Assembly (NCBI RefSeq): GCF_036365525.1
Contig: NC_090399.1
Coordinates: forward strand, 54,158,430-54,222,429
Direction: 5' to 3'
From: Heterodontus francisci
Taxonomy: Eukaryota
DNA length: 64,000 nucleotides
Positions within the stretch are counted from its first letter, which is position 1; the number at the start of each line of letters is the position of its first letter. This document shows positions 6,001 through 55,570 of the stretch, piece after piece. Under the pieces are notes generated by a model that did no database searches, was not told where the DNA came from, and saw nothing but the letters and a program-made list of their open reading frames with translations. Both the position numbers and the translations under genes were made by a program.

Positions 6001-6980
6001 AGAGTTTGTCCAGATTGTATCCCATAATATCCACACTAATGTTCAGGACTGAATATCCAGTGAGTGATGGAGCAGAGTTTGTCCAGATTGTATCCCATAA
6101 TATCCACACTAATGTTCAGGACTGAATATCCAGTGAGTGAAGGAGCAGAGTTTGTGCAGATTGTATCCCATAATATCCACACTCATGTTCAGGGCTGAAT
6201 ATCCAGTGAGTGACGGAGCAGAGTTTGTACAGATTGTATCCCATAATATCCACACTAATGTTCAGGACTGAATATCCAGTGAGTAAAGGAGCAGAGTTTG
6301 TCCAGATTGTATCCCATAATATCCACACTCATGTTCAGGGCTGAATATCCAGTGAGTGACGGAGCAGAGTTTGTACAGATTGTATCCCATAATATCCACA
6401 CTAATGTTCAGGACTGAATATCCAGTGAGTAAAGGAGCAGAGTTTGTCCAGATTGTATCCCATAATATCCACACTAATGTTCAGGGCTGAATATCCAGTG
6501 AGTGACGGAGCAGAGTTTGTACAGATTGTATCCCATAATATCCACACTAATGTTCAGGACTGAATATCCAGTGAGTGAAGGAGCAGAGTTTGTATAGATT
6601 GTATCCCATAATATCCACACTAATGTTCAGGACTGAATATCCAGTGAGTAAAGGAGCAGAGTTTGTGCTGATTGTATCCCATAATATCCACACTAATGTT
6701 CAGGACTGAATATCCAGTGAGTGAAGGAGCAGAGTTTGTACAGATTCTATCCCATAATATCCACACTAATGTTCAGGACTGAATATCCAGTGAGTGAAGG
6801 AGCAGAGTTTGTACAGATTGTATCCCATAATATCCACACTCATGTTCAGGGCTGAATATCCAGTGTGTGAAGGAGCAGAGTTTGTGCAGATTGTATCCCA
6901 TAATATCCACACTCATGTTCAGGGCTGAATATCCAGTGAGTGATGGAGCGGGGTTGGTACAGATTGTTTCCCATCATAGC
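1..6980 (+). repeat. 73-bp tandem array (>=95 copies, open at the window start), in intron 1 of ZNF gene 1
   Basis: Unit GTGAGTGAAGGAGCAGAGTTTGTACAGATTGTATCCCATAATATCCACACTAATGTTCAGGACTGAATATCCA is repeated with few variants. The same unit follows the exon-1 donor in the other three paralogues. Confidence 0.97.
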
Positions 6981-7175
6981 CATTTATCGCTCAATCAACA
7001 TATCAAAAACAGATTACCTGTTCATTATTACTTTGCCGTGTGTGGGAGCTTGCTGTTATCAAATTGAGTGCTGCAGTTCCTAAATAATGGCAGTGAGTAC
7101 ACTTCAGTCGTACATCATTGGCCGTAAAGTGTTTTGGGGCAACTGGTAGTCATGACTGGTGCCATATAGATGGAA
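6981..7175 (+). mobile_element. 3' fragment of a Deu-domain SINE (SacSINE1-like)
   Basis: Similar to the 3' half of the SINE copies at 33260 and 57790 (tttatc.ctcaatcaacat...acagatta.ctg.tcattat...tgtgggagcttgctg). Confidence 0.6.
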
Positions 7176-7339
7176 GTGATGTTTTTTAACTTTCAGAAAA
7201 TCCAGCACAGGTAGTCCAGGCAAAATCCATTGATCCACATTTACTGTCCCCACAGTTCAGTAACCTGCTGACCCTCCCTGGACACCAGTCTCCCAGTGAG
7301 GGGTCAGCACCTTCAGAGACAGGAGAGAATCGGAGGAAA

Positions 7340-7366
7340 CTCACTCATTATTTTTTGTGTTACAGG
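7340..7366 (+). other. Putative splice acceptor of the large ZNF exon (gene 1)
   Basis: ctcactcattattttttgtgttacag|gagtatc. Conserved in the other three units, with exon starts at 33842, 46159 and 58385. Confidence 0.6.
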
Positions 7367-7911
7367 AGTATCTCACCGTATTAAATCAGAGAATAGAGAG
7401 AGGATAGACACCACGCCCAACCAAGACCCGAGGAGATCCCGGACATCACCCCAGGAACAACTCCACAGAAAAAGCATCTCCAATAAATCTGATTGGTCAG
7501 GTGAAGTGAAACTGACCAGTATCCAGTGTCCAGTCAAAACCAACACTTCCATAGGTTTGGCTGTGGGATATCAGTCTGTCCAGGGGATGGAGGGAGTGTA
7601 ACGGGTGAGATTGGAGAGAAGTCTCTCAGGTTCCACAAGCACTGGTTTTCACACTGTCCTTGATGTTCCTGAAACACTGGAATATCCACTCAGGTGAAAG
7701 GTCATTCACATTGAGGGGCGTCAGGCCTGCTCCGAGTGTGAGGAGGGCTTTGAGTGTTCATTATACCTTGTGCAGCATTGGCAGATCCTGACAGGTGTCT
7801 GACGTTTGCAGAGGGCTTTATATGATTGTTGGACCTCCTCATCCACAGACGGTGAGAGTGTAGACAGTCTTAGTGACACCATTGTGTCTCCTGTAACACG
7901 AGGGCAGCCAC

Positions 7912-8016
7912 ATGGCAGAGAAAGCAATTGAATGTGGACAATTTGACGGAGTCTCTGCAAGTTCATCAGGCCCTGTGAATCCCCAAACCATCAACACAGA
8001 GGAGTGGTGGTTCTAG
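7912..8016 (+). other. 34-aa upstream ORF, probably a remnant of the ancestral N-terminus (MAEKAIECGQFDGVSASSSGPVNPQTINTEEWWF*)
   Basis: The ATG has a cacATGg context and the ORF ends at TAG in ttc-TAG-tgt-gaa-gtg-tgt, at the start of a finger. Paralogous uORFs lie at 34388-34492 and 46695-46799. Confidence 0.55.
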
Positions 8017-8200
8017 TGTGAAGTGTGTGAGAAGATCTTTGTACAGTTATCGTACCTGCTGAAACACCAACACACCCACACAGGGGAGAAACTGTTCAAA
8101 GTCGAGGTGTGTGACAAAACCGTCCCACCTCCTGGTCCATGAGAAAACCCACAAAGGGGAGAAACCCTTCACGTGTGACATTTGCAACAAAGGTTTTGCA

Positions 8201-9253
8201 ATGTTGTCCAACCACTTACAAGACCAGCGCATTCACACAGCAGAGAGAGCGTTCAGGTGTGACGTTTGTGAGAGGACCTTCACACGCCCATCCACCCTCC
8301 TTGTCCACCAGCGGATCCACACAGGGGTGAAACCATTCCGCTGTGAGGTTTGTTCTAAAAGCTTCACACTGTCATCCACCCTCCTGATACACCAACGGAT
8401 CCATACAGGGGAGAGACCGTTCAAGTGTGAGGTTTGTGGTAAAACCTTCACACTGTCATCAACTCTCCTCCTTCATCACAGGATCCACACAGGGGAGAGG
8501 CCCTTCAGCTGTGAGGTTTGCCAGAAAACCTTCACATGCTCCTCGCGCCTGCTACAACATCAGAGGATTCACACGGGAGAGAAGCCCTTCAAGTGTGAAG
8601 TGTGTGATAAAGCCTTCACACGCTTATCAACTCTGCAGGATCACTACAGGATCCACACGAGGGAGAAACCTTTCAGGTGTGAGGTATGTGATAAAGCCTT
8701 CACCCAGTCATCGACACTCCTGGCTCACTCCAGGACACACACGATGGAGAAACCATTCAAGTGTGAGGTGTGCGATAAAGCCTTCACACACTCATCGACC
8801 CTCCTAGCTCATTATAGGATCCACACTGGAGAGAAACCCTTCAAGTGTGAGGTGTGTGATAAAGCCTTTACACACTCAGCAACCCTCCAGGCTCACGTCA
8901 GGACTCACACGAGAGAGAAGCCCTTCAGCTGCGAGGTCTGTGATAAAGCCTTCGCACGCTCATCGAACCTCCTGGCTCATTTCAGGACACACACGAGGGA
9001 GAAACCCTCCCGCTGTGAGTTTTGTAAGAAAACCTTCCGGCATTTGTCAGACCTGGTGGAACATCAGCGAACCCACACAGGGGAGACCCCATTCAGGTGC
9101 GAATTCTGCAACAAAGCTTTCAGACATTTGCCTGACCTCCTGGAACATCAACGTACTCACACGGGAGACAAACCCTTCCAGTGTGACGTGTGCCAGGAAT
9201 GTTTCACCTACTCCTCATCTCTAGAGCTTCACCAGAGTCTCCACACGGGATAG
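8201..9253 (+). CDS. C2H2 (Krueppel-type) zinc-finger protein, paralogue 1; 12 intact fingers, 350 aa from the first in-frame ATG
   Basis: The frame is open from 8111 to 9253 with tandem CxxC-x12-HxxxH motifs and TGEKP-type linkers. The ATG at 8201 matches the ATG position in genes 2 and 3. The start is inferred. Confidence 0.85.
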   Translation: MLSNHLQDQRIHTAERAFRCDVCERTFTRPSTLLVHQRIHTGVKPFRCEVCSKSFTLSSTLLIHQRIHTGERPFKCEVCGKTFTLSSTLLLHHRIHTGERPFSCEVCQKTFTCSSRLLQHQRIHTGEKPFKCEVCDKAFTRLSTLQDHYRIHTREKPFRCEVCDKAFTQSSTLLAHSRTHTMEKPFKCEVCDKAFTHSSTLLAHYRIHTGEKPFKCEVCDKAFTHSATLQAHVRTHTREKPFSCEVCDKAFARSSNLLAHFRTHTREKPSRCEFCKKTFRHLSDLVEHQRTHTGETPFRCEFCNKAFRHLPDLLEHQRTHTGDKPFQCDVCQECFTYSSSLELHQSLHTG

Positions 9254-15454: not shown

Positions 15455-18400
15455 TATGAGTGTACTGAGGAAGCGCCGCATTGTTGGCGGGTCATTCCTG
15501 AGGGAGCGCCGCACGTTTGGAGGGTCAGTACGGAGAGAGCAGGGGATCGCCGCGCTGTCGGAGTATTGATGCTGAGGGAGGACTGCGATGTCGAAGGGTT
15601 GGTGCCGAGGGAGTGCCGCGCTGTCAGAGCATCGGTGCCAAGGGATCACTGCGCTTTCAGATCATTGGTGCCGAGGGAGCGCTGTGCTGTCACAGGATTG
15701 GTGCTGAGGGAGTGCCGCGCTGTTGGAGGGTCATGCTGAGAGAGCAGCGTGCTATCTGAGGAGGTCGGTGCCGAGGGAGCACCGCGCTGTCAGAGCATTG
15801 GGACCGAGGGAGTGCTGGAATGTTGACGAGGGTCATTACGTGGGAGCACCATGGTGTTGGAGAGTTGGTGCCGAGGGAGCGCCGAATCTTCGGAGGGTCA
15901 GTACTGAGGGAGTGCTGCACTGTCAGAAGATCAGTACTGAGGGAGTGCCACACTGTCGGAGGGTCGGTACCGAGGGAGTGCCGCACTGTCGGAGGGTCGG
16001 TACCGAGAGAGTATCGGATGGTCGGTACTGAGGGAGTGCCACACTGTCGGATGGTCGGTACTGAGGGAGTGCCACACTGTCGCAGGATCGGAACCAAGGG
16101 AGTGCCGCACCGTCGGAGGGTCGGTACCGAGGGAGTGCCGCTCCGTCGGAGGGTCGGTACCGAGGGAGAGCCGCACCGTCGGAGGGTCGGTACTGAGGGA
16201 GTGCCGCTCCGTCGGAGGGTCGGTACCGAGGGAGCGCCGCACCGTCGGAGAGTTGGTACCAAGGGACTGCCACACCATTGGAGGGTCGGTACCGATGGAG
16301 TGTCGCAGGGTCGGTACTGAGGGAGTGTCGCACTGTCGCAGGGTCTGTACCGAGGGAGTGTCGCACTGTCGGAGGGTCGATAGTGAAGGAGTGCCGCACA
16401 GTTGCAGGGTCGGTACTGAGGGAGTGCCGCACAATTGCAGGGTCAGTACTGAGGGAGTGCCGCACAGTCGCAGGGTCAGTACCGAGGGAGTGTCGCACTG
16501 CCGGTGAGTCGGTAGTGAGGGAGTGCCGCACAGTCGCAGGGTCAGTACCGAGGGGGTGCCGCACAGTCGCAAGGTCAGTACTGAGGGAGTGCCGCACTGT
16601 TGGAGGGTCGGTAGTAAGGGAGTGCCTCACTGTCGTAGGGTCAGTACCGAGGGAGTGTCGCACAGTCGCAGGGTCAGTACCGAGGGAGTGCTGCACTGTC
16701 GGAGGGTCAGTACTGAGGGAGTGCCGCAGGGTCAGTACCAAGGGAGTGCCGCACTATCGCAGGGTCAGTACCAAGGGAGTGTCGCACTGTCGGAAGGTCG
16801 GAAGTGAGGGAGTGCCGCACTGTCGCAGGGTCAGTACTGAGGGAGTGTCGCACTGTTGCAGGGTCAGTACTGAGGGAGTGCCGCACAGTTGCAGGGTCAG
16901 AACTGAGGGAGTGCCGCACTGTCTCAGGGTCAGTATTGAGGTAGTGCCGCACCGTCGGAGGGTCGGTACCAAGGGAGCGCAGCACCGTCGGAGGGTCGGT
17001 ACCGAGGGAGCGCAGCACCGCCACAGGCTCGGTACTGAGTGAGTGCCGCACCGTCGCAGGGTCAGTAGTGAGGATGTGCCGCGCCATCGGAAGGTCGGAA
17101 CTGAGGGAGTGCTGCACTGTGGGAAGGTCGGTACTGAGAGAGTGCTGCACTGTCGGAGGGTCGGTACTGAGAGAGTGCTGCACTGTCGGAAGGTCGGTAC
17201 TGAGAGAGTGCTGCACTGTCGGAAGGTCGGTACTGAGAGAGTACTGCACTGTGGGAAGGTCGGTACTGAGAGAGTGCTGCACTGTCGGAAGGTCGGTACT
17301 GAGAGAGTGCTGCACTGTGGGAAGGTCGGTACTGAAAGAGTGCTGCACTGTGGGAAGGTCGGTACTCGGAGTGCTGCACTGTCGGAAGGTCGGTACTGAG
17401 AGAGTGCTGCACTGTGGGAAGGTCGGTACTGAGAGAGTGCTGCACTGTCGGAAGGTTGGTACTCGGAGTGCTGCACTGTCGGAAGGTCGGTACTCGGAGT
17501 GCTGCACTGTCGGAAGGTCGGTACTGAGAGAGTGCTGCACTGTCGGAAGGTTGGTACTCGGAGTGCTGCACTGTCGGAAGGTCGGTACTCTGAGTGCTGC
17601 ACTGTCGGAAGGTCGGTACTCGGAGTGCTGCAATGTCGGAAGGTCGGTACTGAGAGAGTACTGCACTGTGGGAAGGTCGGTACTGAGAGAGTGCTGCACT
17701 GTCGGAAGGTCGGTACTGAGAGAGTGCTGCACTGTCGGAAGGTTGGTACTCGGAGTAGTGCACTGTCGGAAGGTCGGTACTCGGAGTGCTGCACTGTCGG
17801 AAGGTCGGTACTCGGAGTGCTGCACTGTCGGAAGGACGGTACTGAGAGAGTGCTGCACTGTCGTAAGGTCGGTACTGAGAGAGTACTGCACTGTCGGAAG
17901 GTCGGTACTGAAAGAGTGCTGCACTGTCGGAAGGTCGGAACTGAGGGAGTGCTGCACTGTCGGAAGGTCGGTACTGAGAGAGTGCTGCACTGTGGGAAGG
18001 TCGGTACTGAGAGAGTGCTGCACTGTGGGAAGGTCGGTACTCGGAGTGCTGCACTGTCGGAAGGTCGGTACTGAGAGAGAGCTGCGCTGTCGGAAGGTCG
18101 GTACTGAGAGAGTGCTGCACTGTTGGAGGGTCGGTACTGAGAGAGTGCTGCACTGTGGGAAGGTCGGTACTGAGAGAGTGCTGCACTGTCGGAAGGTCGG
18201 TACTGAGAGAGTACTGCACTGTCGGAAGGTCGGTACTGAGAGAGTGCTGCACTGTCGGAGGGTCGGTACTGAGAGAGTGCTACACTGTCGGAAGGTCGGT
18301 ACTGAGAGAGTGCTGCACTGTCGGAGGGTCGGTACTGAGAGAGTGCTGCACTGTCGGAAGGTTGGTACTGAGAGAGTGCTGCACTGTCGGAAGGTGGGTA

Positions 18401-21400
18401 CTGAGAGAGTGCTGCACTGTGGGAAGGTCGGAACTGAGGGAGTGCTGCACTGTGGGAAGGTCGGTACTCGGAGTGCTGCACTGTCGGAAGGTCGGTACTG
18501 AGAGAGTGCTGTGCTGTCGGAAGGTCGGTACTGAGAGAGTGCTGCACTGTCAGAAGGTCGGTACTGAGAGAGTGCTGCACTGTCGGAAGGTCGGTACTGA
18601 GAGAGTGCTGCACTGTCAGAAGGTCGGTACTGAGAGAGTGCTGCACTGTCGGAAGGTCGGTACTGAGAGAGTGCTGCACTGTCGGAAGGTCGGTACTGAG
18701 AGAGTGCTGCACTGTGGGAAGGTCGGTACTGAGAGAGTGCTGCACAGTGGGAAGGTCGGTACTGAGAGAGTGCTGCACTGTCGGAAGGTCGGTACTCGGA
18801 GTGCTGCACTGTCGGAAGGTCGGTACTGAGAGAGTGCTGCACTGTCGGAAGGTCGGTACTGAGAGAGTGCTGTACTGTGGGAAGGTCGGTACTGAGAGAG
18901 TGCTGCACTGTGGGAAGGTCGGTACTGAGAGAGTGCTGCACTGTCGGAAGGTTGGTACTCGGAGAGCTGCACTGTCGGAAGGTCGGTACTCGGAGTGCTG
19001 CACTGTCGGAAGGTCGGTACTCGGAGTGCTGCACTGTCGGAAGGTCGGTACTGAGAGAGTACTGCACTGTCGGAAGGTCGGTACTGAGAGAGTGCTGCAC
19101 TGTGGGAAGGTCGGTACTGAGAGAGTGCTGCACTGTGGGAAGGTCGGTACTGAGAGAGTGCTGCACTGTGGGAAGGTCGGTACTGAGAGAGTGCTGCACT
19201 GTGGGAAGGTCGGTACTCGGAGTGCTGCACTGTCAGAAAGTCGGTACTGAGAGAGTGCTGCACTGTGGGAAGGTCGGTATTCGGAGTGCTGCACTGTCGG
19301 AAGGTCGGTACTGAGAGAGTGCTGCACTGTGGGAAGGTCGGTACTCGGAGTGCTGCACTGTCGGAAGGTCGGTACTGAGAGAGTGCTGCACTGTCAGAAA
19401 GTCGGTACTGAGAGAGTGCTGCACTGTGGGAAGGTCGGTACTGAGAGAGTGCTGCACTGTGGGAAGGTCGGTACTCGGAGTGCTGCACTGTCGGAGGGTC
19501 GGTACTGAGAGAGTGCTGCACTGTCGGAAGGTCGGTACTGAGAGAGTGCTGCACTGTCAGAAAGTCGGTACTGAGAGAGTGCTGCACTGTCGGAAGGTCG
19601 GTACTCGGAGTGCTGCACTGTCGCAGGGTCGGTACTGAGAGAGTGCTGCACTGTGGGAAGGTCGGTACTGAGAGAGTGCTGCACTGTCGGAGGGTCGGTA
19701 CTGAGAGAGTGCTGCACTGTCGGAAGGTCGGTACTGAGAGAGTGCTGCACTGTCGGAAGGTCGGTACTGAGAGAGTGCTGCACTGTCGGAAGGTCGGTAC
19801 TGAGAGAGGTTGGTACTGAGAGAGTGCTGCACTGTCGGAAGGTCGGTACTCGGAGTGCTGCACTGTCGGAAGGTCGGTACTGAGAGAGTGCTGCACTGTC
19901 GGAAGGTCGGTACTGAGAGAGTGCTGCACTGTCGGAAGGTCGGTACTGAGAGAGTGCTGCACTGTCGGAAGGTCGGTACTCGGAGTGCTGCACTGTCGGA
20001 AGGTCGGAACTGAGAGAGTGCTGCACTGTCGGAAGGTCGGTACTGAGAGAGTGCTGCACTGTCGGAAGGTCGGTACTCGGAGTGCTGCACTGTCGGAAGG
20101 TCGGCACTGAGAGAGTGCTGCGCTGTCGGAAGGTCGGTACTGAGAGAGTGCTGCACTTTCGGAAAGTCAGTACTCGGAGTGCTGCACTGTGGGAAGGTCG
20201 GTACTGAGAGAGTGCTGCACTTTCGGAAAGTCAGTACTCGGAGTGCTGCACTGTCGGAAGGTCGGTACTGAGAGAGTGCTGCACTGTGGGAAGGTCGGTA
20301 CTGAGAGAGTGCTGCACTTTCGGAAAGTCAGTACTCGGAGTGCTGCACTGTCGGAAGGTCGGTACTCGGAGTGCTGCACTGTCGGAGGGTCGGTACTGAG
20401 AGAGTACTGCACTGTGGGAAGATCAGTACTGAGAGAGTGCTGCACTGTGGGAAGTTCGGTACTGAGAGAGTGCTGCACTGTCGGAAGGTCGGTACTGAGA
20501 GAGTGCTGCACTGTCGGAAGGTCGGTACTCGGAGTGCTGCACTGTCGGAAGGTCGGTACTGAGAGAGTGCTGCGCTGTCGGAAGGTCGGGACACGGAGTG
20601 CTGCACGGTCGGAGGGTCGGTACTGAGAGAGTGCTGCACTGTCGGAAGGTCGGTACTCGGAGTGCTGCACTGTCGGAAGGTCGGTTCTGAGAGAGTGCTG
20701 CGCTGTCGGAAGGTCGGGACTCGGAGTGCTGCACTGTGGGAAGGTCGGTACTGAGAGAGTGCTGCACTGTCGGAAGGTCGGTACTCGGAGTGCTGCACTG
20801 TCGGAAGGTCGGTACTGAGAGAGTACTGCACTGTCGGAAGGTCGGTACTGAGAGAGTGCTGCACTTTCGGAAAGTCAGTACTCGGAGTGCTGCACTGTCG
20901 GAGGGTCGGTACTGAGAGAGTACTGCACTGTCGGAAGGTCGGTACTGAGAGAGTGCTGCACTGTCGGAAGGTCGGTACTGAGAGAGTGCTGCACTGTCGG
21001 AAGGTCGGTACTGAGAGAGTGCTGCACTGTGGGAAGGTCGGTACTGAGAGAGTGCTGCACTGTGGGAAGGTCGGTACTGAGAGAGTGCTGCACTTTCGGA
21101 AAGTCAGTACTCGGAGTGCTGCACTGTGGGAAGGTCGGTACTGAGAGAGTGCTGCACTGTGGGAAGGTCGGTACTGAGAGAGTGCTGCACTTTCGGAAAG
21201 TCAGTACTCGGAGTGCTGCACTGTCGGAAGGTCGGTACTGAGAGAGTGCTGCACTGTCGGAAGGTCGGTACTGAGAGAGTGCTGCACTTTCGGAAAGTCA
21301 GTACTCGGAGTGCTGCACTGTCGGAGGGTCGGTACTCGGAATGCTGCACTGTCGGAGGGTCGGTACTGAGAGAGTACTGCACTGTGGGAAGATCGGTACT

Positions 21401-24400
21401 GAGAGAGTGCTGCACTGTCGGAAGGTCGGTACTGAGAGAGTGCTGCACTTTCGGAAAGTCAGTACTCGGAGTGCTGCACTGTCGGAAGGTCGGTACTCGG
21501 AGTGCTGCACTTTCGGAAGGTCGGTACTGAGAGAGTACTGCACTGTGGGAAGATCGGTACTGAGAGAGTGCTGCACTGTGGGAAGGTCGGTACTGAGAGA
21601 GTGCTGCACTGTCGGAAGGTCGGTACTGAGAGAGTGCTGCACTGTCGGAAGGTCGGTACTGAGAGAGTGCTGCACTGTCGGAAGGTCGGTACTGAGAGAG
21701 TGCTGCACTGTCGGAAGGTCGGTACTCGGAGTGCTGCACTGTCAGAAGGTCGGTACTGAGAGAGTGCTGCACTGTCGGAAGGTCGGTACTGAGAGAGTGC
21801 TGCACTGTCGGAAGGTCGGTACTCGGAGTGCTGCACTGTCGGAAGGTCGGCACTGAGAGAGTGCTGCGCTGTCGGAAGGTCGGTACTGAGAGAGTGCTGC
21901 ACTTTCGGAAAGTCAGTACTCGGAGTGCTGCACTGTCGGAGGGTCGGTACTGAGAGAGTACTGCACTGTCGGAAGGTCGGTACTGAGAGAGTGCTGCACT
22001 ATCGGAAGGTCGGTACTGAGAAAGTGCTGCACTGTCGGAAGGTCGGTACTGAGAGAGTGCTGCACTGTGGGAAGGTCGGTACTGAGTGAGTGCTGCACTG
22101 TGGGAAGGTCGGTACTGAGAGAGTGCTGCACTTTCGGAAAGTCAGTACTCGGAGTGCTGCACTGTTGGAAGGTCGGTACTGAGAGAGTGCTGCACTGTCG
22201 GAAGGTCGGTACTGAGAGAGTGCTGCACTTTCGGAAAGTCAGTACTCGGAGTGCTGCACTGTCGGAGGGTCGGTACTGAGAGAGTACTGCACTGTGGGAA
22301 GATCAGTACTGAGAGAGTGCTGCACTGTGGGAAGGTCGGTACTGAGAGAGTGCTGCACTGTCGGAAGGTCGGTACTGAGAGAGTGCTGCACTGTCGGAAG
22401 GTCGGTACTCGGAGTGCTGCACTGTCGGAAGGTCGGTACTGAGAGAGTGCTGCGCTGTCGGAAGGTCGGGACTTGGAGTGCTGCACGGTCGGAGGGTCGG
22501 TACTGAGAGAATGCTGCACTGTCGGAAGGTCGGTACTCGGAGTGCTGCACTGTCGGAAGGTGGGTACTGAGAGAGTGCTGCGCTGTCGGAAGGTCGGGAC
22601 TCGGAGTGCTGCACTGTGGGAAGGTCGGTACTGAGAGAGTGCTGCACTGTCGGAAGGTCGGTACTGAGAGAGTGCTGCACTTTCGGAAAGTCAGTACTCG
22701 GAGTGCTGCACTGTCGGAGGGTCGGTACTGAGAGAGTACTGCACTGTCGGAAGGTCGGTACTGAGAGAGTGCTGCACTGTCGGAAGGTCGGTACTGAGAG
22801 AGTGCTGCACTGTCGGAAGGTCGGTACTGAGAGAGTGCTGCACTGTGGGAAGGTCGGTACTGAGAGAGTGCTGCACTGTGGGAAGGTCGGTACTGAGAGA
22901 GTGCTGCACTTTCGGAAAGTCAGTACTCGGAGTGCTGCACTGTGGGAAGGTCGGTACTGAGAGAGTGCTGCACTGTGGGAAGGTCGGTACTGAGAGAGTG
23001 CTGCACTTTCGGAAAGTCAGTACTCGGAGTGCTGCACTGTCGGAAGGTCGGTACTGAGAGAGTGCTGCACTGTCGGAAGGTCGGTACTGAGAGAGTGCTG
23101 CACTTTCGGAAAGTCAGTACTCGGAGTGCTGCACTGTCGGAAGGTCGGTACTCGGAATGCTGCACTGTCGGAGGGTCGGTACTGAGAGAGTACTGCACTG
23201 TGGGAAGATCGGTACTGAGAGAGTGCTGCACTGTCGGAAGGTCGGTACTGAGAGAGTGCTGCACTGTCGGAAGGTCGGTACTGAGAGAGTGCTGCACTGT
23301 CGGAAGGTCGGTACTCGGAGTGCTGCACTGTCGGAAGGTCGGTACTGAGAGAGTGCTGCGCTGTCGGAAGGTCGGGACTCGGAGTGCTGCACGGTCGGAG
23401 GGTCGGTACTGAGAGAGTGCTGCACTGTCGGAAGGTCGGGACTCGGAGTGCTGCACTGTGGGAAGGTCGGTACTGAGAGAGTGCTGCACTGTCGGAAGGT
23501 CGGTACTCGGAGTGCTGCACTGTCGGAAGGTCGGTACTGAGAGAGTGCTGCACTGTGGGAAGGTCGGTACTGAGAGAGTGCTGCACTGTCGGAAGGTCGG
23601 GACTCGCAGTGCTGCACGGTCGGAGGGTCGGTACTGAGAGAGTGCTGCACTGTCGGAAGGTCGGGACTCGGAGTGCTGCACTGTCGGAAGATCGGTACTG
23701 AGAGAGTGCTGCACTGTCGGAAGGTCGGTACTGAGAGAGTGCTGCACTGTCGGAAGGTCGGGACTCGGAGTGCTGCACGGTCGGAAGGTCGGTACTGAGA
23801 GAGTGCTGCACTGTCGGAAGGTCGGTACTCGGAGTGCTGCACTGTCGGAAGGTCGGTACTGAGAGAGTGCTGCGCTGTCGGAAGGTCGGGACTCGGAGTG
23901 CTGCACGGTCGGAGGGTCGGTACTGAGAGAGTGCTGCACTGTCGGAAGGTCGGTACTCGGAGTGCTGCACTGTCGGAAGGTCGGTACTGAGAGAGTGCTG
24001 CGCTGTCGGAAGGTCGGGACTCGGAGTGCTGCACTGTGGGAAGGTCGGTACTGAGAGAGTGCTGCACTGTCGGAAGGTCGGTACTCGGAGTGCTGCACTG
24101 TCGGAAGGTCGGTACTGAGAGAGTACTGCACTGTCGGAAGGTCGGTACTGAGAGAGTGCTGCACTTTCGGAAAGTCAGTACTCGGAGTGCTGCACTGTCG
24201 GAGGGTCGGTACTGAGAGAGTACTGCACTGTCGGAAGGTCGGTACTGAGAGAGTGCTGCACTGTCGGAAGGTCGGTACTGAGAGAGTGCTGCACTGTCGG
24301 AAGGTCGGTACTGAGAGAGTGCTGCACTGTGGGAAGGTCGGTACTGAGAGAGTGCTGCACTGTGGGAAGGTCGGTACTGAGAGAGTGCTGCACTTTCGGA

Positions 24401-27400
24401 AAGTCAGTACTCGGAGTGCTGCACTGTGGGAAGGTCGGTACTGAGAGAGTGCTGCACTGTGGGAAGGTCGGTACTGAGAGAGTGCTGCACTTTCGGAAAG
24501 TCAGTACTCGGAGTGCTGCACTGTCGGAAGGTCGGTACTGAGAGAGTGCTGCACTGTCGGAAGGTCGGTACTGAGAGAGTGCTGCACTTTCGGAAAGTCA
24601 GTACTCGGAGTGCTGCACTGTCGGAAGGTCGGTACTCGGAATGCTGCACTGTCGGAGGGTCGGTACTGAGAGAGTGCTGCACTGTCGGAAGGTCGGGACT
24701 CGGAGTGCTGCACTGTCGGAAGGTCGGTACTGAGAGAGTGCTGCACTGTCGGAAGGTCGGTACTGAGAGAGTGCTGCACTGTCGGAAGGTCGGGACTCGG
24801 AGTGCTGCACGGTCGGAAGGTCGGTACTGAGAGAGTGCTGCACTGTCGGAAGGTCGGTACTCGGAGTGCTGCACTGTCGGAAGGTCGGTACTGAGAGAGT
24901 GCTGCGCTGTCGGAAGGTCGGGACTCGGAGTGCTGCACGGTCGGAGGGTCGGTACTGAGAGAGTGCTGCACTGTCGGAAGGTCGGTACTCGGAGTGCTGC
25001 ACTGTCGGAAGGTCGGTACTGAGAGAGTGCTGCGCTGTCGGAAGGTCGGGACTCGGAGTGATGCACTGTGGGAAGGTCGGTACTGAGAGAGTGCTGCACT
25101 GTCGGAAGGTCGGTACTCGGAGTGCTGCACTGTCGGAAGGTCGGTACTGAGAGAGTACTGCACTGTCGGAAGGTCGGTACTGAGAGAGTGCTGCACTTTC
25201 GGAAAGTCAGTACTCGGAGTGCTGCACTGTCGGAGGGTCGGTACTGAGAGAGTGCTGCACTGTCGGAAGGTCGGTACTCGGAGTGCTGCACTGTCGGAAG
25301 GTCGGTACTGAGAGAGTGCTGCGCTGTCGGAAGGTCGGGACTCGGAGTGCTGCACGGTCGGAGGGTCGGTACTGAGAGAGTGCTGCACTGTCGGAAGGTC
25401 GGTACTCGGAGTGCTGCACTGTCGGAAGGTCGGTACTGAGAGAGTGCTGCGCTGTCGGAAGGTCGGGACTCGGAGTGCTGCACTGTGGGAAGGTCGGTAC
25501 TGAGAGAGTGCTGCACTGTCGGAAGGTCGGTACTCGGAGTGCTGCACTGTCGGAAGGTCGGTACTGAGAGAGTACTGCACTGTCGGAAGGTCGGTACTGA
25601 GAGAGTGCTGCACTTTCGGAAAGTCAGTACTCGGAGTGCTGCACTGTCGGAGGGTCGGTACTGAGAGAGTACTGCACTGTCGGAAGGTCGGTACTGAGAG
25701 AGTGCTGCACTGTCGGAAGGTCGGTACTGAGAGAGTGCTGCACTGTCGGAAGTTCGGTACTGAGAGAGTGCTGCACTGTGGGAAGGTCGGTACTGAGAGA
25801 GTGCTGCACTGTGGGAAGGTCGGTACTGAGAGAGTGCTGCACTTTCGGAAAGTCAGTACTCGGAGTGCTGCACTGTGGGAAGGTCGGTACTGAGAGAGTG
25901 CTGCACTGTGGGAAGGTCGGTACTGAGAGAGTGCTGCACTTTCGGAAAGTCAGTACTTGGAGTGCTGCACTGTCGGAAGGTCGGTACTGAGAGAGTGCTG
26001 CACTGTCGGAAGGTCGGTACTGAGAGAGTGCTGCACTTTCGGAAAGTCAGTACTCGGAGTGCTGCACTGTCGGAAGGTCGGTACTCGGAATGCTGCACTG
26101 TCGGAGGGTCGGTACTGAGAGAGTGCTGCACTGTCGGAAGGTCGGGACTCGGAGTGCTGCACTGTCGGAAGGTCGGTACTGAGAGAGTGCTGCACTGTCG
26201 GAAGGTCGGTACTGAGAGAGTGCTGCACTGTCGGAAGGTCGGGACTCGGAGTGCTGCACGGTCGGAAGGTCGGTACTGAGAGAGTGCTGCACTGTCAGAA
26301 GGTCGGTACTCGGAGTGCTGCACTGTCGGAAGGTCGGTACTGAGAGAGTGCTGCACTGTCGGAAGGTCGGTACTCGGAGTGCTGCACTGTCGGAAGGTCG
26401 GTACTGAGAGAGTGCTGCGCTGTCGGAAGGTCGGGACTCGGAGTGATGCACTGTGGGAAGGTCGGTACTGAGAGAGTGCTGCACTGTCGGAAGGTCGGTA
26501 CTCGGAGTGCTGCACTGTCGGAAGGTCGGTACTGAGAGAGTACTGCACTGTCGGAAGGTCGGTACTGAGAGAGTGCTGCACTTTCGGAAAGTCAGTACTC
26601 GGAGTGCTGCACTGTCGGAGGGTCGGTACTGAGAGAGTACTGCACTGTCGGAAGGTCGGTACTGAGAGAGTGCTGCACTGTCGGAAGGTCGGTACTGAGA
26701 GAGTGCTGCACTGTCGGAAGGTCGGTACTGAGAGAGTGCTGCACTGTGGGAAGGTCGGTACTGAGAGAGTGCTGCACTGTGGGAAGGTCGGTACTGAGAG
26801 AGTGCTGCACTTTCGGAAAGTCAGTACTCGGAGTGCTGCACTGTCGGAAGGTCGGTACTGAGAGAGTGCTGCACTGTGGGAAGGTCGGTACTGAGAGAGT
26901 GCTGCACTTTCGGAAAGTCAGTACTCGGAGTGCTGCACTGTCGGAAGGTCGGTACTGAGAGAGTGCTGCACTGTCGGAAGGTCGGTCCTGAGAGAGTGCT
27001 GCACTTTCGGAAAGTCAGTACTCGGAGTGCTGCACTGTCGGAAGGTCGGTACTCGGAATGCTGCACTGTCGGAGGGTCGGTACTGAGAGAGTACTGCACT
27101 GTGGGAAGATCGGTACTGAGAGAGTGCTGCACTGTCGGAAGGTCGGTACTGAGAGAGTGCTGCACTTTCGGAAAGTCAGTACTCGGAGTGCTGCACTGTC
27201 GGAAGGTCGGTACTCGGAGTGCTGCACTGTCGGAAGGTCGGTACTGAGAGAGTACTGCACTGTGGGAAGATCGGTACTGAGAGAGTGCTGCACTGTGGGA
27301 AGGTCGGTACTGAGAGAGTGCTGCACTGTCGGAAGGTCGGTACTGAGAGAGTGCTGCACTGTCGGAAGGTCGGTACTCGGAGTGCTGCACTGTCGGAAGG

Positions 27401-29146
27401 TCGGTACTGAGAGAGTGCTGCGCTGTCGGAAGGTCGGGACTCGGAGTGCTGCACGGTCGGAGGGTCGGTACTGAGAGAGTGCTGCACTGTCGGAAGGTCG
27501 GGACTCGGAGTGCTGCACTGTCGGAAGGTCGGTACTGAGAGAGTGCTGCACTGTCGGAAGGTCGGTACTCGGAGTGCTGCACTGTCGGAAGGTCGGTACT
27601 GAGAGAGTGCTGCACTGTCGGAAGGTCGGTACTGAGAGAGTGCTGCACTGTCGGAAGGTCGGGACTCGGAGTGCTGCACGGTCGGAGGGTCGGTACTGAG
27701 AGAGTGCTGCACTGTCGGAAGGTCGGTACTCGGAGTGCTGCACTGTCGGAAGGTCGGGACTCGGAGTGCTGCACTGTGGGAAGGTCGGTACTGAGAGAGT
27801 GCTGCACTGTCGGAAGGTCGGTACTCGGAGTGCTGCACTGTCGGAAGGTCGGTACTGAAAGAGTACTGCACTGTCGGAAGGTCGGTACTGAGAGAGTGCT
27901 GCACTTTCGGAAAGTCAGTACTCGGAGTGCTGCACTGTCGGAGGGTCGGTACTGAGAGAGTGCTGCACTGTCGGAAGGTCGGTACTGAGAGAGTGCTGCA
28001 CTGTGGGAAGGTCGGTACTGAGAGAGTGCTGCACTTTCGGAAAGTCAGTACTCGGAGTGCTGCACTGTGGGAAGGTCGGTACTGAGAGAGTGCTGCACTG
28101 TGGGAAGGTCGGTACTGAGAGAGTGCTGCACTTTCGGAAAGTCAGTACTCGGAGTGCTGCACTGTCGGAAGGTCGGTACTGAGAGAGTGCTGCACTGTCG
28201 GATGGTCGGTACTGAGAGAGTGCTGCACTTTCGGAAAGTCAGTACTCGGAGTGCTGCACTGTCGGAAGGTCGGTACTCGGAATGCTGCACTGTCGGAGGG
28301 TCGGTACTGAGAGACTACTGCACTGTGGGAAGATCGGTACTGAGAGAGTGCTGCACTGTGGGAAGGTCGGTACTGAGAGAGTGCTGCACTGTCGGAAGGT
28401 CGGTACTGAGAGAGTGCTGCACTGTCGGAAGGTCGGTACTCGGAGTGCTGCACTGTCGGAAGGTCGGTACTGAGAGAGTGCTGCGCTGTCGGAAGGTCGG
28501 GACTCGGAGTGCTGCACGGTCGGAGGGTCGGTACTGAGAGAGTGCTGCACTGTCGGAAGGTCGGGACTCGGAGTGCTGCACTGTGGGAAGGTCGGTACTG
28601 AGAGAGTGCTGCACTGTCGGAAGGTCGGTACTCGGAGTGCTGCACTGTCGGAAGGTCGGTACTGAGAGAGTGCTGCACTGTGGGAAGGTCGGTACTGAGA
28701 GAGTGCTGCACTGTCGGAAGGTCGGGACTCGGAGTGCTGCACGGTCGGAGGGTCGGTACTGAGAGAGTGCTGCACTGTCGGAAGGTCGGGACTCGGAGTG
28801 CTGCACTGTCGGAAGGTCGGTACTGAGAGAGTGCTGCACTGTCGGAAGGTCGGTACTGAGAGAGTGCTGCACTGTCGGAAGGTCGGGACTCGGAGTGCTG
28901 CACGGTCGGAGGGTCGGTACTGAGAGAGTGCTGCACTGTCGGAAGGTCGGGACTCGGAGTGCTGCACTGTCGGAAGGTCGGTACTGAGAGAGTGCTGCAC
29001 TGTCGGAAGGTCGGTACTGAGAGAGTGCTGCACTGTCGGAAGGTCGGTACTGAGAGAGTGCTGCACTGTCGGAAGGTCGGTACTGAGAGAGTGCTGCACT
29101 GTCGGAAGGTCGGTACTCGGAGTGCTGCACTGTCGGAGGGACTGTG
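15455..29146 (+). repeat. 33/31-bp CpG-rich minisatellite, ~13.7 kb (about 420 units), directly upstream of the gene 2 promoter
   Basis: Units GTCGGTACTGAGAGAGTGCTGCACTGTCGGAAG (33 bp) and GTCGGTACTCGGAGTGCTGCACTGTCGGAAG (31 bp). The array is degenerate at the left end and homogeneous at the right. Confidence 0.97.
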
Positions 29147-29474
29147 AAATGTTTTGGAACATCCTGTATATATGAAAGTTCTTGCTCCTTCTCTCCTTTA
29201 TTTCTCATCACTGACATTGACTGGATTGAATAATCTCAAAGTAACAAAACACCAAGAGGAGGTCCGGCCCTCTCCACTGTGAATGGCTGAGTGGATTGAT
29301 TGACATGGGAGCAGACGACTAACATTTTTAGGATGGGTGGCTTTCGATGTCCCTGAGCTACTCATTGGTTGTGGGAGATGTCAGTCAGAGAAGCCAACCA
29401 ATCGGCTCTTTTCCTCCTCTTCCTCTTTCGCAGCTGGTTGATTTCCTGATCGGGATTGAAAAACAAGTGAGACG
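29147..29474 (+). promoter_or_regulatory. Putative promoter and non-coding exon 1 of gene 2
   Basis: Contains ATTGG and CCAATC boxes and an ETS-like TTCCTG, and ends at a GACG|GTGAGT donor. Homologous to 41917-42212 and 55146-55425. Confidence 0.65.
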
Positions 29475-30780
29475 GTGAGTAAAGGAGCAGAGTTTGTACA
29501 GATTGTATCCCATAATATCCACACTAATGTTCAGGACTGAATATCCAGTGAGTGACGGAGCAGAGTTTGTACAGATTGTATCCCATAATATCCACACTAA
29601 TGTTCAGGACTGAATATCCAGTGAGTGACGGAGCAGAGTTTGTACAGATTGTATCCCATAATATCCACACTAATGTTCAGGACTGAATATCCAGTGAGTG
29701 ACGGAGCAGAGTTTGTACAGATTGTATCCCATAATATCCACACTAATGTTCAGGACTGAATATCCAGTGAGTGACGGAGCAGAGTTTGTACAGATTGTAT
29801 CCCATAATATCCACACTAATGTTCAGGACTGAATATCCAGTGAGTGACGGAGCAGAGTTTGTACAGATTGTATCCCATAATATCCACACTAATGTTCAGG
29901 ACTGAATATCCAGTGAGTGACGGAGCAGAGTTTGTACAGATTGTATCCCATAATATCCACACTAATGTTCAGGACTGAATATCCAGTGAGTGACGGAGCA
30001 GAGTTTGTACAGATTGTATCCCATAATATCCACACTAATGTTCAGGACTGAATATCCAGTGAGTGACGGAGCAGAGTTTGTACAGATTGTATCCCATAAT
30101 ATCCACACTAATGTTCAGGACTGAATATCCAGTGAGTGACGGAGCAGAGTTTGTACAGATTGTATCCCATAATATCCACACTAATGTTCAGGACTGAATA
30201 TCCAGTGAGTGACGGAGCAGAGTTTGTACAGATTGTATCCCATAATATCCACACTAATGTTCAGGACTGAATATCCAGTGAGTGACGGAGCAGAGTTTGT
30301 ACAGATTGTATCCCATAATATCCACACTAATGTTCAGGACTGAATATCCAGTGAGTGACGGAGCAGAGTTTGTACAGATTGTATCCCATAATATCCACAC
30401 TAATGTTCAGGACTGAATATCCAGTGAGTGACGGAGCAGAGTTTGTACAGATTGTATCCCATAATATCCACACTAATGTTCAGGACTGAATATCCAGTGA
30501 GTGAAGGAGCAGAGTTTGTACAGATTGTATCCCATAATATCCACACTAATGTTCAGGACTGAATATCCAGTGAGTGAAGGAGCAGAGTTTGTACAGATTG
30601 TATCCCATAATATCCACACTAATGTTCAGGACTGAATATCCAGTGAGTGAAGGAGCAGAGTTTGTACAGATTGTATCCCATAATATCCTCACTAATGTTC
30701 AGGACTGAATATCCAGTGAGTAAAGGAGCAGAGTTTGTACAGATTGTATCCCATAATATCCTCACTAATGTTCAGGACTG
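29475..30780 (+). repeat. 73-bp tandem array (~18 copies) starting at the donor GT of gene 2 intron 1
   Basis: Same unit as 1-6980, including a long run of apparently identical GTGACGG-variant copies. Confidence 0.97.
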
Positions 30781-33655: not shown

Positions 33656-34595
33656 TTCCATGAGCTATAAAGAAATCCAACACAGGCAATCCAGGCAAAA
33701 TCCATTGATCCACATTTACTGCCCCCACAGTTCAGTAACCTGCTGACCCTCCTTGGACACCAGTCTCCCAGTGAGGGGTCAGCACCTTCAGAGATGGCAG
33801 AGAATCGGAGGAAACTCACTCATTATTTTATTGTGTTACAGGAGTATCTCACCGTATTAAATCAGAGAATAGAGAGTGGATAGACACCGCACCCAGCCAA
33901 GACCCGAGGAGATCCCGGACATCACCCCAGGGACAACTCCACAGAAAAAGCATCTGCAATAAATCTGATTGGTCAGGAGAAGTGAAATTGACCAGTGTCC
34001 TGCGTCTAATCAAAACCAAAGCTTCCATCAGTTTGGCTGTGGGATATCAGTCTGTCCAGGAGATGGAGGGATTGTAACGGGTGAGTTTGGAAAGAAGTCT
34101 CTCAGGTTCCACAAGCAGTGGTTTTCACACAGTCATTGGTGTTCCTGAAACACTGGAACATCCACTCAGATGAAAGGTCATTCACAGTGAGGGACGTAAG
34201 GACTGCTCAGACCGTGACGAGGACTTTGAGTGTTCATTATACCTTGTGATGCATTGGCAGATCCTGACAGGTGTCTGACATTTGCTGAGGGCTTTATATG
34301 ATTGTTGGACCTCCTCATCCACAGATGGTGAGAGTGTAGACAGTCTTAGTGACACCATTGTGTCTCCTGTAACACGAGAGCAGCCACATGACAGAGAAAA
34401 CAATTGAATGTGGACAATTTGACGGAGTCTCTGCGAGGTCATCAGGCCCTGTGAATCCTCAATCCACCAACACAGAGGAGAGGTGGTTCTAGTGTGAAGT
34501 GTGTGAGAAGACCTGCGTACGGTTATCGTACCTCCTGAAACACCAACACACCCACACGGGAGAAACTGTTCATTTGCGAGGTGTGTGACAGAACA

Positions 34596-34950
34596 GGGCG
34601 GCACAGTGGCGCAGTGGTTAGCACCGCAGCCTCACAGCTCCAGGGACCTGGGTTCAATTCTGGGTACTGCCTGTGCGGAGTTTGCAAGTTCTCCCTGTGT
34701 CTGCGTGGGTTTCCTCCGGGTGCTCCGGTTTCCTCCCACATGCCAAAGACTTGCAGGTTGATAGGTAAATTGGCTGTTATAAATTGCCCCTAGTATTGGT
34801 AGGTGGTAGGGAAATATATAGGTACAGGTGGGAATGTGGTAGGAATATGGGATTAGTGTAGGATTAGTATAAATGGGTAGTTGATGGTCGGCACAGACTC
34901 GGTGGGCCGAAGGGCCTGTTTCAGTGCTGTATCTCTAAACTAAACTAAAC
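34596..34950 (+). mobile_element. HE1-type V-SINE inserted in the decayed 5' fingers of gene 2
   Basis: tRNA-derived head with A- and B-box-like motifs, V domain tgcgtgggtttcctccgggtgctccggtttcctcccaca, and a (TAAAC)3 tail. The empty site gacaaaacattctctc is present at 59131. Confidence 0.88.
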
Positions 34951-35041
34951 ATTCTCTCAATCATCCCACCACCTGGTCCATCAGAGAACCCACACAGGGG
35001 AGAAACCCTTCACGTGTGACATTTGCAACAAAGCTTTCCTA

Positions 35042-36403
35042 ATGTTGTCCAATCACTTACAAAACCAGCACAGTCACACAGGGGAGAGACCCTTCATGTG
35101 TGAGCTGTGTGACAGGGCCTTCACACACCCATCGAAGCTGCTGATACACCAGCGGATGCACACAGCGGACAGATGCTTCAAGTGCGAGGTTTGTGGCAAG
35201 GCCTTCATGCAGTCGTCCACCCTGCTTCGCCATCAAAGGATACACACAGGGGAGAGGCCCTTCAGGTGTGAGGTGTGTGACAAAGCCTTCATGCAGTCAT
35301 CGACCCTCCTTCGCCATCAAAGTATTCACGCAGTGGAGAAACCCTTCAGTTGTGAGGTGTGTGATAAAGCTTTTGTGAAGTCATCCACCCTCCTGGTCCA
35401 CCAGCGAGTGCACACAGGGGAGAGACTGTTCAAGTGCAAGGTTTGTGGCAAGGCCTTCACTGAGTCATTGACCCTCATTCGCCATCACAGGATCCACACG
35501 GGGGAGAGGCCCTTCCCACACCGCTCGAGCCTGCGCCAGCAGCAGAGGATTCACATGGGAGAGAAACCCTTCAAGTGTGAGGTGTGTGATAAAGTCTTCA
35601 GACACTCATCGACCCTCCTGGCTCACTACGGAACCCACACAGGGGAGAAACCCTTCAAAGTCGAGGTGTGTGACAAAACGTTCCCTCAATCATCCCACCT
35701 CCTGGTCCATCAGAGAACACACACAAGGGAGAAACCCTTCACGTGTGACATTTGCAACAAAGCTTTCCCAAAGTTGTCCAGACTCTTACAACACCAGCGC
35801 ATTCATACAGGGGAGAGAGCGTTCAGGTGTGTGGTGTGTGATAAGACCTTCACACAGTCATCAGCCCTCCTTCTCCATCACAGGATCCACACAGGGGAGA
35901 AACCATTCAAGTGTGATATTTGTGATAAGACCTTCAGACAGTCGTCGACCCTCCGTCTCCATCACAGGATCCACACAGGGGAGAAACTCTTCAGGTGTGA
36001 AGTGTGTGACAGGGCCTTCACACACCGATCGACGCTCCTGATACACCAGCGGATCCACACAGGGGAGAGACCCTTCAGGTGTGAAGTTTGTGGTAAAGCC
36101 TTCGTATGTTCATCAAACCTCCTGGTTCATTTCAGGACCCACACAAGGGTGAAACCCTCCCGCTGTGAGTTTTGTAAGAAAACCTTCCCACATTTGTCAG
36201 ACCTGGTGGAACATCAGCAGACCCACACAGGGGAGACCCCATTCAGGTGTGAGTTCTGCAACAAAGCTTTCAAACAGTTGCCTGATCTCCTGGAACATCA
36301 ACGTACTCACACAGGAGGCAAACCCTTCCAGTGTGACGTGTGCCAGGAATGTTTCACCTACTCCTCCTCTCTAGAGCTTCACCAGAGTCTCCACACAGGA
36401 TAG
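35042..36403 (+). CDS. C2H2 zinc-finger protein, paralogue 2; 14 intact and 2 broken fingers, 453 aa
   Basis: ATG-initiated ORF of tandem C2H2 motifs with the same C-terminus as the paralogues. Confidence 0.85.
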   Translation: MLSNHLQNQHSHTGERPFMCELCDRAFTHPSKLLIHQRMHTADRCFKCEVCGKAFMQSSTLLRHQRIHTGERPFRCEVCDKAFMQSSTLLRHQSIHAVEKPFSCEVCDKAFVKSSTLLVHQRVHTGERLFKCKVCGKAFTESLTLIRHHRIHTGERPFPHRSSLRQQQRIHMGEKPFKCEVCDKVFRHSSTLLAHYGTHTGEKPFKVEVCDKTFPQSSHLLVHQRTHTREKPFTCDICNKAFPKLSRLLQHQRIHTGERAFRCVVCDKTFTQSSALLLHHRIHTGEKPFKCDICDKTFRQSSTLRLHHRIHTGEKLFRCEVCDRAFTHRSTLLIHQRIHTGERPFRCEVCGKAFVCSSNLLVHFRTHTRVKPSRCEFCKKTFPHLSDLVEHQQTHTGETPFRCEFCNKAFKQLPDLLEHQRTHTGGKPFQCDVCQECFTYSSSLELHQSLHTG

Positions 36404-41916: not shown

Positions 41917-42212
41917 GAAATGCTTTAGAACATCCTGTATATATGAAAGTTCTTGCTCCTTCTCCTTTATTTCTAATCACTGACAGTGACTGGATTGAAT
42001 ATTCTCAAAGTGACAAAGCACCAAGAGGTGGTCCCGCCCTCTTCTTTGTGATTGGCTGAGTGAATTGATTGACAGGAATGGCGGGTTGCAATATATCTGG
42101 GGTACCCATTGGCTGCGAGAAATGTCAATCTGAGCATCCAACCAATCGGATCATTCTCTCTTCCGCTTCCGCAACTGGTTCACTTCCTGACTGAAAACCA
42201 AGGGAGGAGACG
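41917..42212 (+). promoter_or_regulatory. Putative promoter and non-coding exon 1 of gene 3
   Basis: GC box CCCGCCC, three CCAAT/ATTGG boxes, tandem CTTCCG and CACTTCCTG ETS-like sites, and a GACG|GTGAGT donor. Confidence 0.7.
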
Positions 42213-42795
42213 GTGAGTAAAGGAGCAGAGTTTGTACAGATTGTATCCCATAATATCCACACTAATGGTCAGGACTGAATATCCAGTGAGTGACGGAGCA
42301 GAGTTTGTACAGATTGTATCCCATAATATCCACACTAATGTTCAGGACTGAATATCCAGTGAGTGACGGAGCAGAGTTTGTCCAGATTGTATCCCATAAT
42401 ATCCACACTAATGTTCAGGACTGAATATCCAGTGAGTGAAGGAGCAGAGTTTGTCCAGATTGTATCCCATAATATCCACACTAATGTTCAGGACTGAATA
42501 TCCAGTGAGTGAAGGAGCAGAGTTTGTACAGATTGTATCCCATAATATCCACACTAATGTTCAGGACTGAATATCCAGTGAGTGACGGAGCAGAGTTTGT
42601 ATAGATTGTATCCCATAATATCCACACTAATGTTCAGGACTGAATATCCAGTGAGTGACGGAGCAGAGTTTGTACAGATTGTATCCCATAATATCCACAC
42701 TAATGTTCAGGACTGAATATCCAGTGAGTGACGGAGCAGAGTTTGTCCAGATTGTATCCCATAATATCCACACTAATGTTCAGGACTGACTATCA
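42213..42795 (+). repeat. 73-bp tandem array (~8 copies)
   Basis: Same unit, starting at the donor GT. Confidence 0.95.
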
Positions 42796-55137: not shown

Positions 55138-55145
55138 ATATGAAA

Positions 55146-55425: not shown

Positions 55426-55570
55426 GTGAGTAACGGAGCAGAGTTTGTACAGATTGTATCCCATAATATCCACACTAATGTTCAGGTCTGAACATCCAGT
55501 GAGTGACGGAGCAGAGTTTGTACAGATTGTATCCCATAATATCCACACTAATGTTCAGGACTGAATATCA
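55426..55570 (+). repeat. 73-bp unit, 2 copies
   Basis: Same unit, starting at the donor GT. Confidence 0.9.

What the first reader, a model, noticed from the sequence alone, without database searches (positions are those of the whole stretch)
29475..30780. The 73-bp satellite is an amplified 5' splice site: one GTGAGT donor motif per unit
Seen: in three paralogues the array begins exactly at GACG|GTGAGT (29475, 42213, 55426), so it is a tandem amplification of the first 73 nt of intron 1. Each unit regenerates CCA|GTGAGT. The hexamer is rarely mutated, while the three bases after it (GAA/AAA/GAC/GAT) are the most variable in the unit. Each unit also has an ATG (taATGttc) and a TTCAG 13 nt before the donor. 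Established: GTRAGT pairs with U1 snRNA, and promoter-proximal U1 sites suppress premature polyadenylation and affect transcription. Inference: the array offers 2 to ~95 U1 sites or alternative donors that would lengthen the 5' UTR by 73n nt and add uORFs.
Basis: partly seen in the sequence, partly recalled or inferred. Interest (0 to 1): 0.78.

Follow-up and report, generated by a model that had tools for sequence, protein, structure and literature searches.

The report
Repeat array copying a splice donor
In a cluster of zinc-finger genes, the likely first splice signal has been copied head-to-tail 2 to 349 times per gene; such repeats are known from human genes, and here the copies show no sign of being specially preserved.

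Summary
The anatomy is real. The 73-bp array starts at a donor-like GT right after a promoter-like block in 13 of 13 paralogous C2H2 zinc-finger genes that keep the block, with 2 to 349 copies. Across 1,110 internal units GTGAGT is no better conserved than other positions (P=0.51). Internal sites lose -1G and pair about 4 kcal/mol more weakly with U1. Copy number does not track intronic poly(A) signals. This is a donor-spanning minisatellite, a known kind (F7, ABCA7, CBS, 6-16) in which the first donor dominates. No spliced junction could be seen in sequencing runs, so donor use is untested. New here: a divergent paralogue independently amplified the homologous donor as a different 51-bp unit, at least 645 copies. 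The region is rich in giant minisatellites, which lowers the surprise. Most likely a tolerated passenger kept uniform by turnover between paralogues. It is a ready-made series for testing donor choice.

The parts
29141..29474 (+). Promoter-like block and putative short non-coding exon 1 (two CCAAT boxes at 29364-29368 and 29398-29402; ends GACG)
   Evidence: Homologous block directly before the array in 13 genes; motif names are recalled; start site not mapped
29475..29482 (+). Putative authentic 5' splice site ACG|GTGAGTAA
   Evidence: U1 duplex -11.0 kcal/mol against -6.5 to -7.3 for the two commonest internal forms; use not shown
29475..30780 (+). 73-bp minisatellite, 17.9 copies, 17 internal pseudo-donors CCA|GTGAGT
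33827..33841 (+). Putative 3' splice site ending TTACAG, exon 2 from 33842
   Evidence: T-rich tract and CAG|GAG in 14 of 14 genes examined
35042..36403 (+). C2H2 zinc-finger ORF, 453 aa
   Evidence: Pfam zf-C2H2 E=1.9e-82
1..6982 (+). Tail of a 281-copy, 20.5-kb array of the upstream paralogue (start G000:C29:54144925; first site ACC|GTGAGT is as weak as internal sites)
7366..9253 (+). Exon 2 and ZNF ORF (8201-9253) of the 281-copy paralogue
42213..42794 (+). 8-copy array of the next paralogue (promoter block 41912-42212, acceptor 46159, ORF 46978-47862)
55426..55569 (+). 2-copy array of the last paralogue (promoter block 55138-55425, acceptor 58385, ORF 59542-60363)
15465..29137 (+). Unrelated 33-bp satellite that ends 338 bp upstream of the donor; shows that arrays flank the core promoter on both sides

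Best explanation
A donor-spanning minisatellite that is tolerated rather than selected. One ancestral duplication across the exon-1/intron-1 boundary of a zinc-finger gene, probably seeded by a short direct repeat on both sides of the boundary, was inherited by the paralogues (inferred). Unequal exchange within and between paralogues then moved copy number between 2 and 349 and kept units about 97% alike (copy numbers and identity shown; mechanism inferred). The cap-proximal, stronger first donor is used and the array is removed as intron, with at most minor use of the second or third site (inferred from F7/ABCA7 and U1 pairing; not shown). The arrays end close to the core promoter on both sides because promoter-proximal DNA can be amplified only where it does no harm (inferred).
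For: Hexamer not specially conserved in the 73-bp units nor in the 51-bp units (0.7% against a median 0.5%). The first three internal donors are no more intact than distal ones (31 of 36 against 783 of 831). First donors pair with U1 at -10.2 to -11.0 kcal/mol in 11 of 13 genes, internal ones at -6.5 to -7.3. The better-pairing +7 A is kept at 9 of 13 first sites but in 286 of 1110 internal units. Copy number is unrelated to intronic AATAAA/ATTAAA count (rho 0.25, p 0.41), non-array intron length or finger number, n=13. Array majority units are 97% identical between arrays against 79% for exon 1 and 73% for the flank after the array. About half of the neighbouring 298 kb without ZNF genes is giant minisatellite. 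Precedents: PMC1557585, PMC5954066.
Against: No junction read shows that the first site is used or that internal sites are silent. A second, independent array spans the homologous donor; rough post-hoc odds are 4e-4 under uniform placement and 0.009 if arrays arise within 1 kb of donors (family counts chosen by hand). A 134-copy array also lies about 27 nt behind an unrelated donor-like site. Homogenisation can hide weak selection on one motif, and n=13 gives the correlations little power. In the 281-copy gene the first site is no stronger than internal ones.
Confidence: 0.64

Rival explanations
1. Functional U1 or alternative-donor array: the copies bind U1 or are used as donors, and copy number tunes expression of each paralogue through 5' UTR length, uORFs or protection from early polyadenylation.
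For: GT is intact in most units (1082 and 1108 of 1110 at +1 and +2). Each unit would add an ATG giving a 20-aa uORF if spliced at the next donor. Two independent amplifications of the same donor. F7 pseudo-sites are functional once the first site is lost (PMC1557585 abstract).
Against: No excess conservation (P=0.51). Weaker U1 pairing. The 281- and 67-copy genes have no AATAAA/ATTAAA in the non-array intron to protect against. Leaders already hold 3-12 ATGs. One-unit retention in ABCA7 did not change with length.
Confidence: 0.12
2. The site is not the working donor: these genes start or splice elsewhere, or several are decaying, so the array only happens to carry a donor-like hexamer.
For: No junction seen. 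Many paralogues have a frame break near the first finger and long ATG-rich leaders; 2 of 14 lack a good main ORF. By simple arithmetic a random 73-mer carries GTRAGT about 3.6% of the time.
Against: Promoter-like block, strong donor and conserved acceptor in the same order in 13 genes; 12 of 14 keep ORFs of 10-22 fingers; the homologous position is donor-like in the divergent paralogue.
Confidence: 0.12
3. The arrays matter through length or chromatin, not through donor motifs: a first intron stretched by up to 25-33 kb, or satellite heterochromatin beside the promoter, lowers or delays expression of some paralogues.
For: Intron 1 ranges from 3.0 to 31.0 kb, mostly through the array. Arrays abut the promoter on both sides. 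ABCA7 length changes skipping of a neighbouring exon without changing donor use.
Against: No expression or methylation data; no link between copy number and ORF state.
Confidence: 0.12

Closest known systems
Human F7 IVS7 37-bp VNTR and the cases listed with it: 6-16 intron 2, CBS IVS13, lamin B2 100-bp, PDGF 81-bp (PMC1557585; abstract, introduction and passages read; the other four known only from that introduction)
   Same: Minisatellite whose first unit sits at an exon-intron boundary, so the donor is reiterated down the intron.
   Different: There 5-25 copies in single genes, with identical pseudo-sites in F7 and splicing measured. Here 2-349 copies over at least 13 paralogues, in a putative 5' UTR intron, internal sites weakened at -1, splicing unmeasured.
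Human ABCA7 intron-18 25-bp VNTR (PMC5954066; passages and section 21 read)
   Same: The array begins exactly at the donor GT; 12 to about 427 units; a one-unit-retention isoform exists.
   Different: Coding context and allelic variation at one locus; here variation is between paralogues and allelic variation is unknown.
U1 telescripting (search listing and abstract starts only)
   Same: Promoter-proximal U1-complementary sites in a first intron.
   Different: No sign of selection on the sites and no relation to poly(A) signals here.

Membership tests
Donor-spanning minisatellite (F7/ABCA7/CBS kind) | Tandem array of 10-100-bp units | tested here: met
   73-bp period, 94-99% matches
Donor-spanning minisatellite (F7/ABCA7/CBS kind) | First unit begins at or spans a donor-like site at the predicted exon-intron boundary | tested here: met
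   13 of 13 genes with the promoter block; boundary inferred from sequence
Donor-spanning minisatellite (F7/ABCA7/CBS kind) | Donor motif reiterated in each unit | tested here: met
   1037 of 1110 internal units keep GTGAGT
Donor-spanning minisatellite (F7/ABCA7/CBS kind) | The first site is an authentic donor in transcripts | tested here: inconclusive
   No such joint among the 15 rows shown; 627 rows hidden
Donor-spanning minisatellite (F7/ABCA7/CBS kind) | Copy number varies between alleles | not testable with these tools
   One assembly; C107 and C1741 are 99.9-100% duplicates of the cluster
Selected U1-site / alternative-donor array | Donor motif more conserved than the rest of the unit | tested here: not met
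Selected U1-site / alternative-donor array | Copy number tracks intronic poly(A) signals | tested here: not met
   rho 0.25, p 0.41, n=13, low power
Selected U1-site / alternative-donor array | U1 binding or copy-number effect on expression | not testable with these tools
   Needs CLIP or reporters
Structured RNA array (tRNA-, snoRNA- or miRNA-like unit) | Match to a known RNA family or unusually stable fold | tested here: not met
   No Rfam match in the units, no tRNA, fold z=-0.76

The most novel reading that the evidence does not exclude
The first donor of this gene family is a repeated target of amplification (73-bp family in at least 13 genes, independent 51-bp family of at least 645 copies in a divergent paralogue), either because the promoter-donor zone is mechanistically unstable or because extra U1 sites are favoured, and copy number acts as an expression dial across the paralogues.
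Probability: 0.13. Interest if true: 0.7.

Novelty: new member of a known kind. Interest (0 to 1): 0.36.

Why it matters
As it stands it adds a non-mammalian-looking, family-wide example to a known class. Its value is as a natural series: near-identical genes with 1 to 348 downstream pseudo-donors, one gene whose first site is as weak as the internal ones, and one with 600+ identical sites. One long-read cDNA set would test whether 5'-to-3' scanning holds at that scale. If donor-centred amplification is biased or tunes expression, it would link satellite birth to first-exon architecture.

Tried and rejected
Sequencing runs: no RNA holder listed on record; 11 runs from 3 studies hold part of exon 2, none half of its words, 7 only guessed to be RNA. 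Laying 4 of the 11 on the 2-copy paralogue was swamped by intronic repeats because I included the whole intron at 82% likeness. None of the 15 joints shown is exon 1 to exon 2, and 627 were hidden. The bin holding the exon-1 end and array had depth 16-162, two unique intron bins and the upstream bin had 0, and exon 2 was covered, but contigs cannot separate junction from array sequence. Inconclusive both ways.

Retrocopy as a stand-in for cDNA: all 16 genomic matches to the exon-2 start are the known intron-bearing loci.

Structured RNA unit: rejected. Telescripting need: no correlation. Allelic variation from unplaced contigs: they are duplicates. More family members between and beside the clusters: none in 398 kb. 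MaxEntScan was not available; RNAduplex with the U1 5' end (recalled, no pseudouridine) replaced it.

Origin of the +7/+9 alleles: stepwise AAA to GAA to GAC to GAT (CpG decay) and derivation of GAC from the exon end both fit the haplotype counts; not resolved.

Literature: no paper held all terms for a shark ZNF-cluster intronic satellite (0 papers); searches gave 0, 2, 2 and 2 papers. PMC10078293 (passages read) did not bear on it. The library lacks most subscription papers; no supplements were read. Earlier scan findings: none.

Full report
Setting. The window is G000:C29:54158430-54222429 in a 6.0-Gb genome. It looks like a cartilaginous fish, judged from the recalled 33-bp repeat; this was not tested. 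It holds four tandem C2H2 zinc-finger genes. The family has 17 genomic matches: two inverted clusters on C29 plus two unplaced contigs that duplicate part of one cluster at 99.9-100%. Each gene reads: promoter-like block, donor-like site, 73-bp array, rest of intron, acceptor, one long exon with the fingers. This gene model is inferred from sequence only.

The observation. In all 13 distinct genes that keep the promoter block, the array starts at the donor-like GT. Copy number runs from 2 to 349, up to 25.5 kb; the array cut by the window start has 281 copies. These starts are one inherited event.

Conservation test. I cut 1,110 internal units (319 distinct) from 16 arrays. Left out: the C107 duplicate, first units, three single-unit fragments and a few units with spacing outside 60-85 nt. 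GTGAGT is intact in 1037. But the whole unit is nearly invariant: the hexamer varies 1.2% per base against a median of 0.8% and mean of 2.1% elsewhere, and 27-41 of 73 six-base windows are as invariant or more so. Counting each allele once per array, a random six positions do as well half the time (P=0.51). The essential +1 G varies in 7 of 16 arrays. The three donors nearest the promoter are not better kept (31 of 36) than distal ones (783 of 831). Positions +7 and +9 are the most variable, +8 is not. Units are not independent, and homogenisation could hide weak selection.

Strength. With the U1 5' end (recalled; RNAduplex, no modified bases) first sites pair at -10.2 to -11.0 kcal/mol in 11 of 13 genes, the two commonest internal forms at -6.5 and -7.3, because they lack -1G. 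The exceptions are one gene at -8.1 and the 281-copy gene at -6.6. Sites lacking -1G but with a good intronic part can still work (general knowledge), so internal sites are possible donors, only weaker.

Proposed functions. Copy number does not correlate with AATAAA/ATTAAA counts in the non-array intron (rho 0.25, p 0.41), non-array length (0.20, 0.52) or finger number (-0.18, 0.55), n=13. An internal donor would add a 20-aa uORF, but exon 2 already holds 3-12 ATGs ahead of the main ORF in the 12 genes with a usable ORF. The unit is not a structured RNA.

Origin. Where the native flank survives, the array ends at unit position 71. The last ~27 nt of exon 1 resemble the unit junction: 10 of 13 genes are reached by at most 4 of 500 shuffles, though upstream control 40-mers reach 18-26 at their best against 16-34 for exon ends. 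So a short direct repeat across the boundary could have seeded the duplication, and the true left edge may be inside exon 1 (inference). Majority units are 97% alike between arrays, first units 93%, exon 1 79%, the flank after the array 73%, while exon 2 and the acceptor region are 93-94%. This fits turnover between paralogues. A divergent gene pair supports it: one carries a 134-copy array that matches the family unit about as closely as the other large arrays do, its sister a decayed two-unit remnant.

A second amplification. The most divergent paralogue carries a different array: 51-bp unit, at least 645 copies over at least 33 kb across an assembly gap. It starts 37 nt before a site ACG|GTCAGT that aligns with the family's donor, so the unit is the end of exon 1 plus the first bases of the intron, ending in a TG run. 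It shares little else with the 73-bp unit (local score 19) and seems confined to this locus (150 of 641 matches listed). Its donor-like motif is intact in 584 of 636 units and again not specially conserved. This gene's ORF is broken after five fingers. Rough post-hoc odds for two donor-spanning families are 4e-4 under uniform placement and 0.009 if families arise within 1 kb of donors (counts of 12 and 5 families chosen by hand). Against over-reading: other arrays end 248-763 bp upstream of donors in 7 genes, and about 148 of the 298 kb between the clusters is giant minisatellite, one of 1,144 copies. Large arrays are the local background.

Transcripts. No junction evidence was obtained in either direction (see Tried and rejected).

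What is known. PMC1557585 (abstract, introduction, passages) describes minisatellites whose first unit spans an exon-intron boundary: F7, 6-16, CBS, lamin B2 and PDGF. Only the first one to three donors are used, and in F7 minigenes the most upstream functional site won even against better U1 matches up to a consensus value of 91. PMC5954066 (passages, section 21) describes the ABCA7 array that begins at the donor GT, reaches about 427 units, and gives about 2% one-unit retention unaffected by length. The present array meets the sequence features of this kind; authentic donor use and allelic variation are untested.

Verdict. Real feature, known kind, most likely a tolerated passenger (0.64). 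The residual interest is the family-wide copy series and the second, independent amplification of the same donor. Interest 0.36.

Noticed in passing
G000:C29:54099651-54132653 (L050, L049, L001, L002): A different 51-bp satellite, at least 645 copies, spans the homologous exon-1 donor of a divergent ZNF paralogue; it crosses a 200-N gap, so its size is a minimum.
   Followed up: yes
G000:C29:54249788-54259593 (L007, L008): A 134-copy 73-bp array starts about 27 nt behind an unrelated donor-like site (GAG|GTAAGT) of a CpG-rich upstream region, in a divergent ZNF gene with a 12-finger ORF; possibly a chimeric gene. Its sister (exon 2 near 54381837) keeps only a decayed two-unit remnant.
   Followed up: partly
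window 15465-29137; G000:C29:54092145-54099440; 54356153-54362757: Unrelated 33-, 91- and 46-bp satellites end 248-763 bp upstream of the donors, leaving a short unique core promoter between two arrays.
   Followed up: partly
G000:C29:53760001-54058429 (L055-L084): About half of the 298 kb between the two inverted ZNF clusters is giant minisatellite (53 bp x 718, 80 bp x 308, 22 bp x 531, 53 bp x 1144, 49 bp x 140); no ZNF genes; other genes not looked for.
   Followed up: no
window 1-7365 and G000:C29:54363485-54368510: In two genes the intron is almost all array: only 383 and 162 bp of other sequence remain before the acceptor.
   Followed up: no
G000:C29:53710896-53729195: One array of about 142 copies is split into 32 and 110 by an 8-kb insertion; two small arrays are split by shorter insertions.
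   Followed up: no
window 34601-34936: An interspersed repeat (85% like 42893-43217, opposite strand) sits inside the putative exon 2 leader of the 18-copy gene.
   Followed up: no
window 7366-9253, 33842-36403, 58385-60363: The first one or two fingers lie out of frame or before a stop in most paralogues, so main ORFs start inside the finger array behind a long ATG-rich leader.
   Followed up: partly
G000:C107 and G000:C1741: Unplaced contigs duplicate part of the plus-strand cluster at 99.9% and 100% over the 30 kb compared; likely assembly duplicates.
   Followed up: yes
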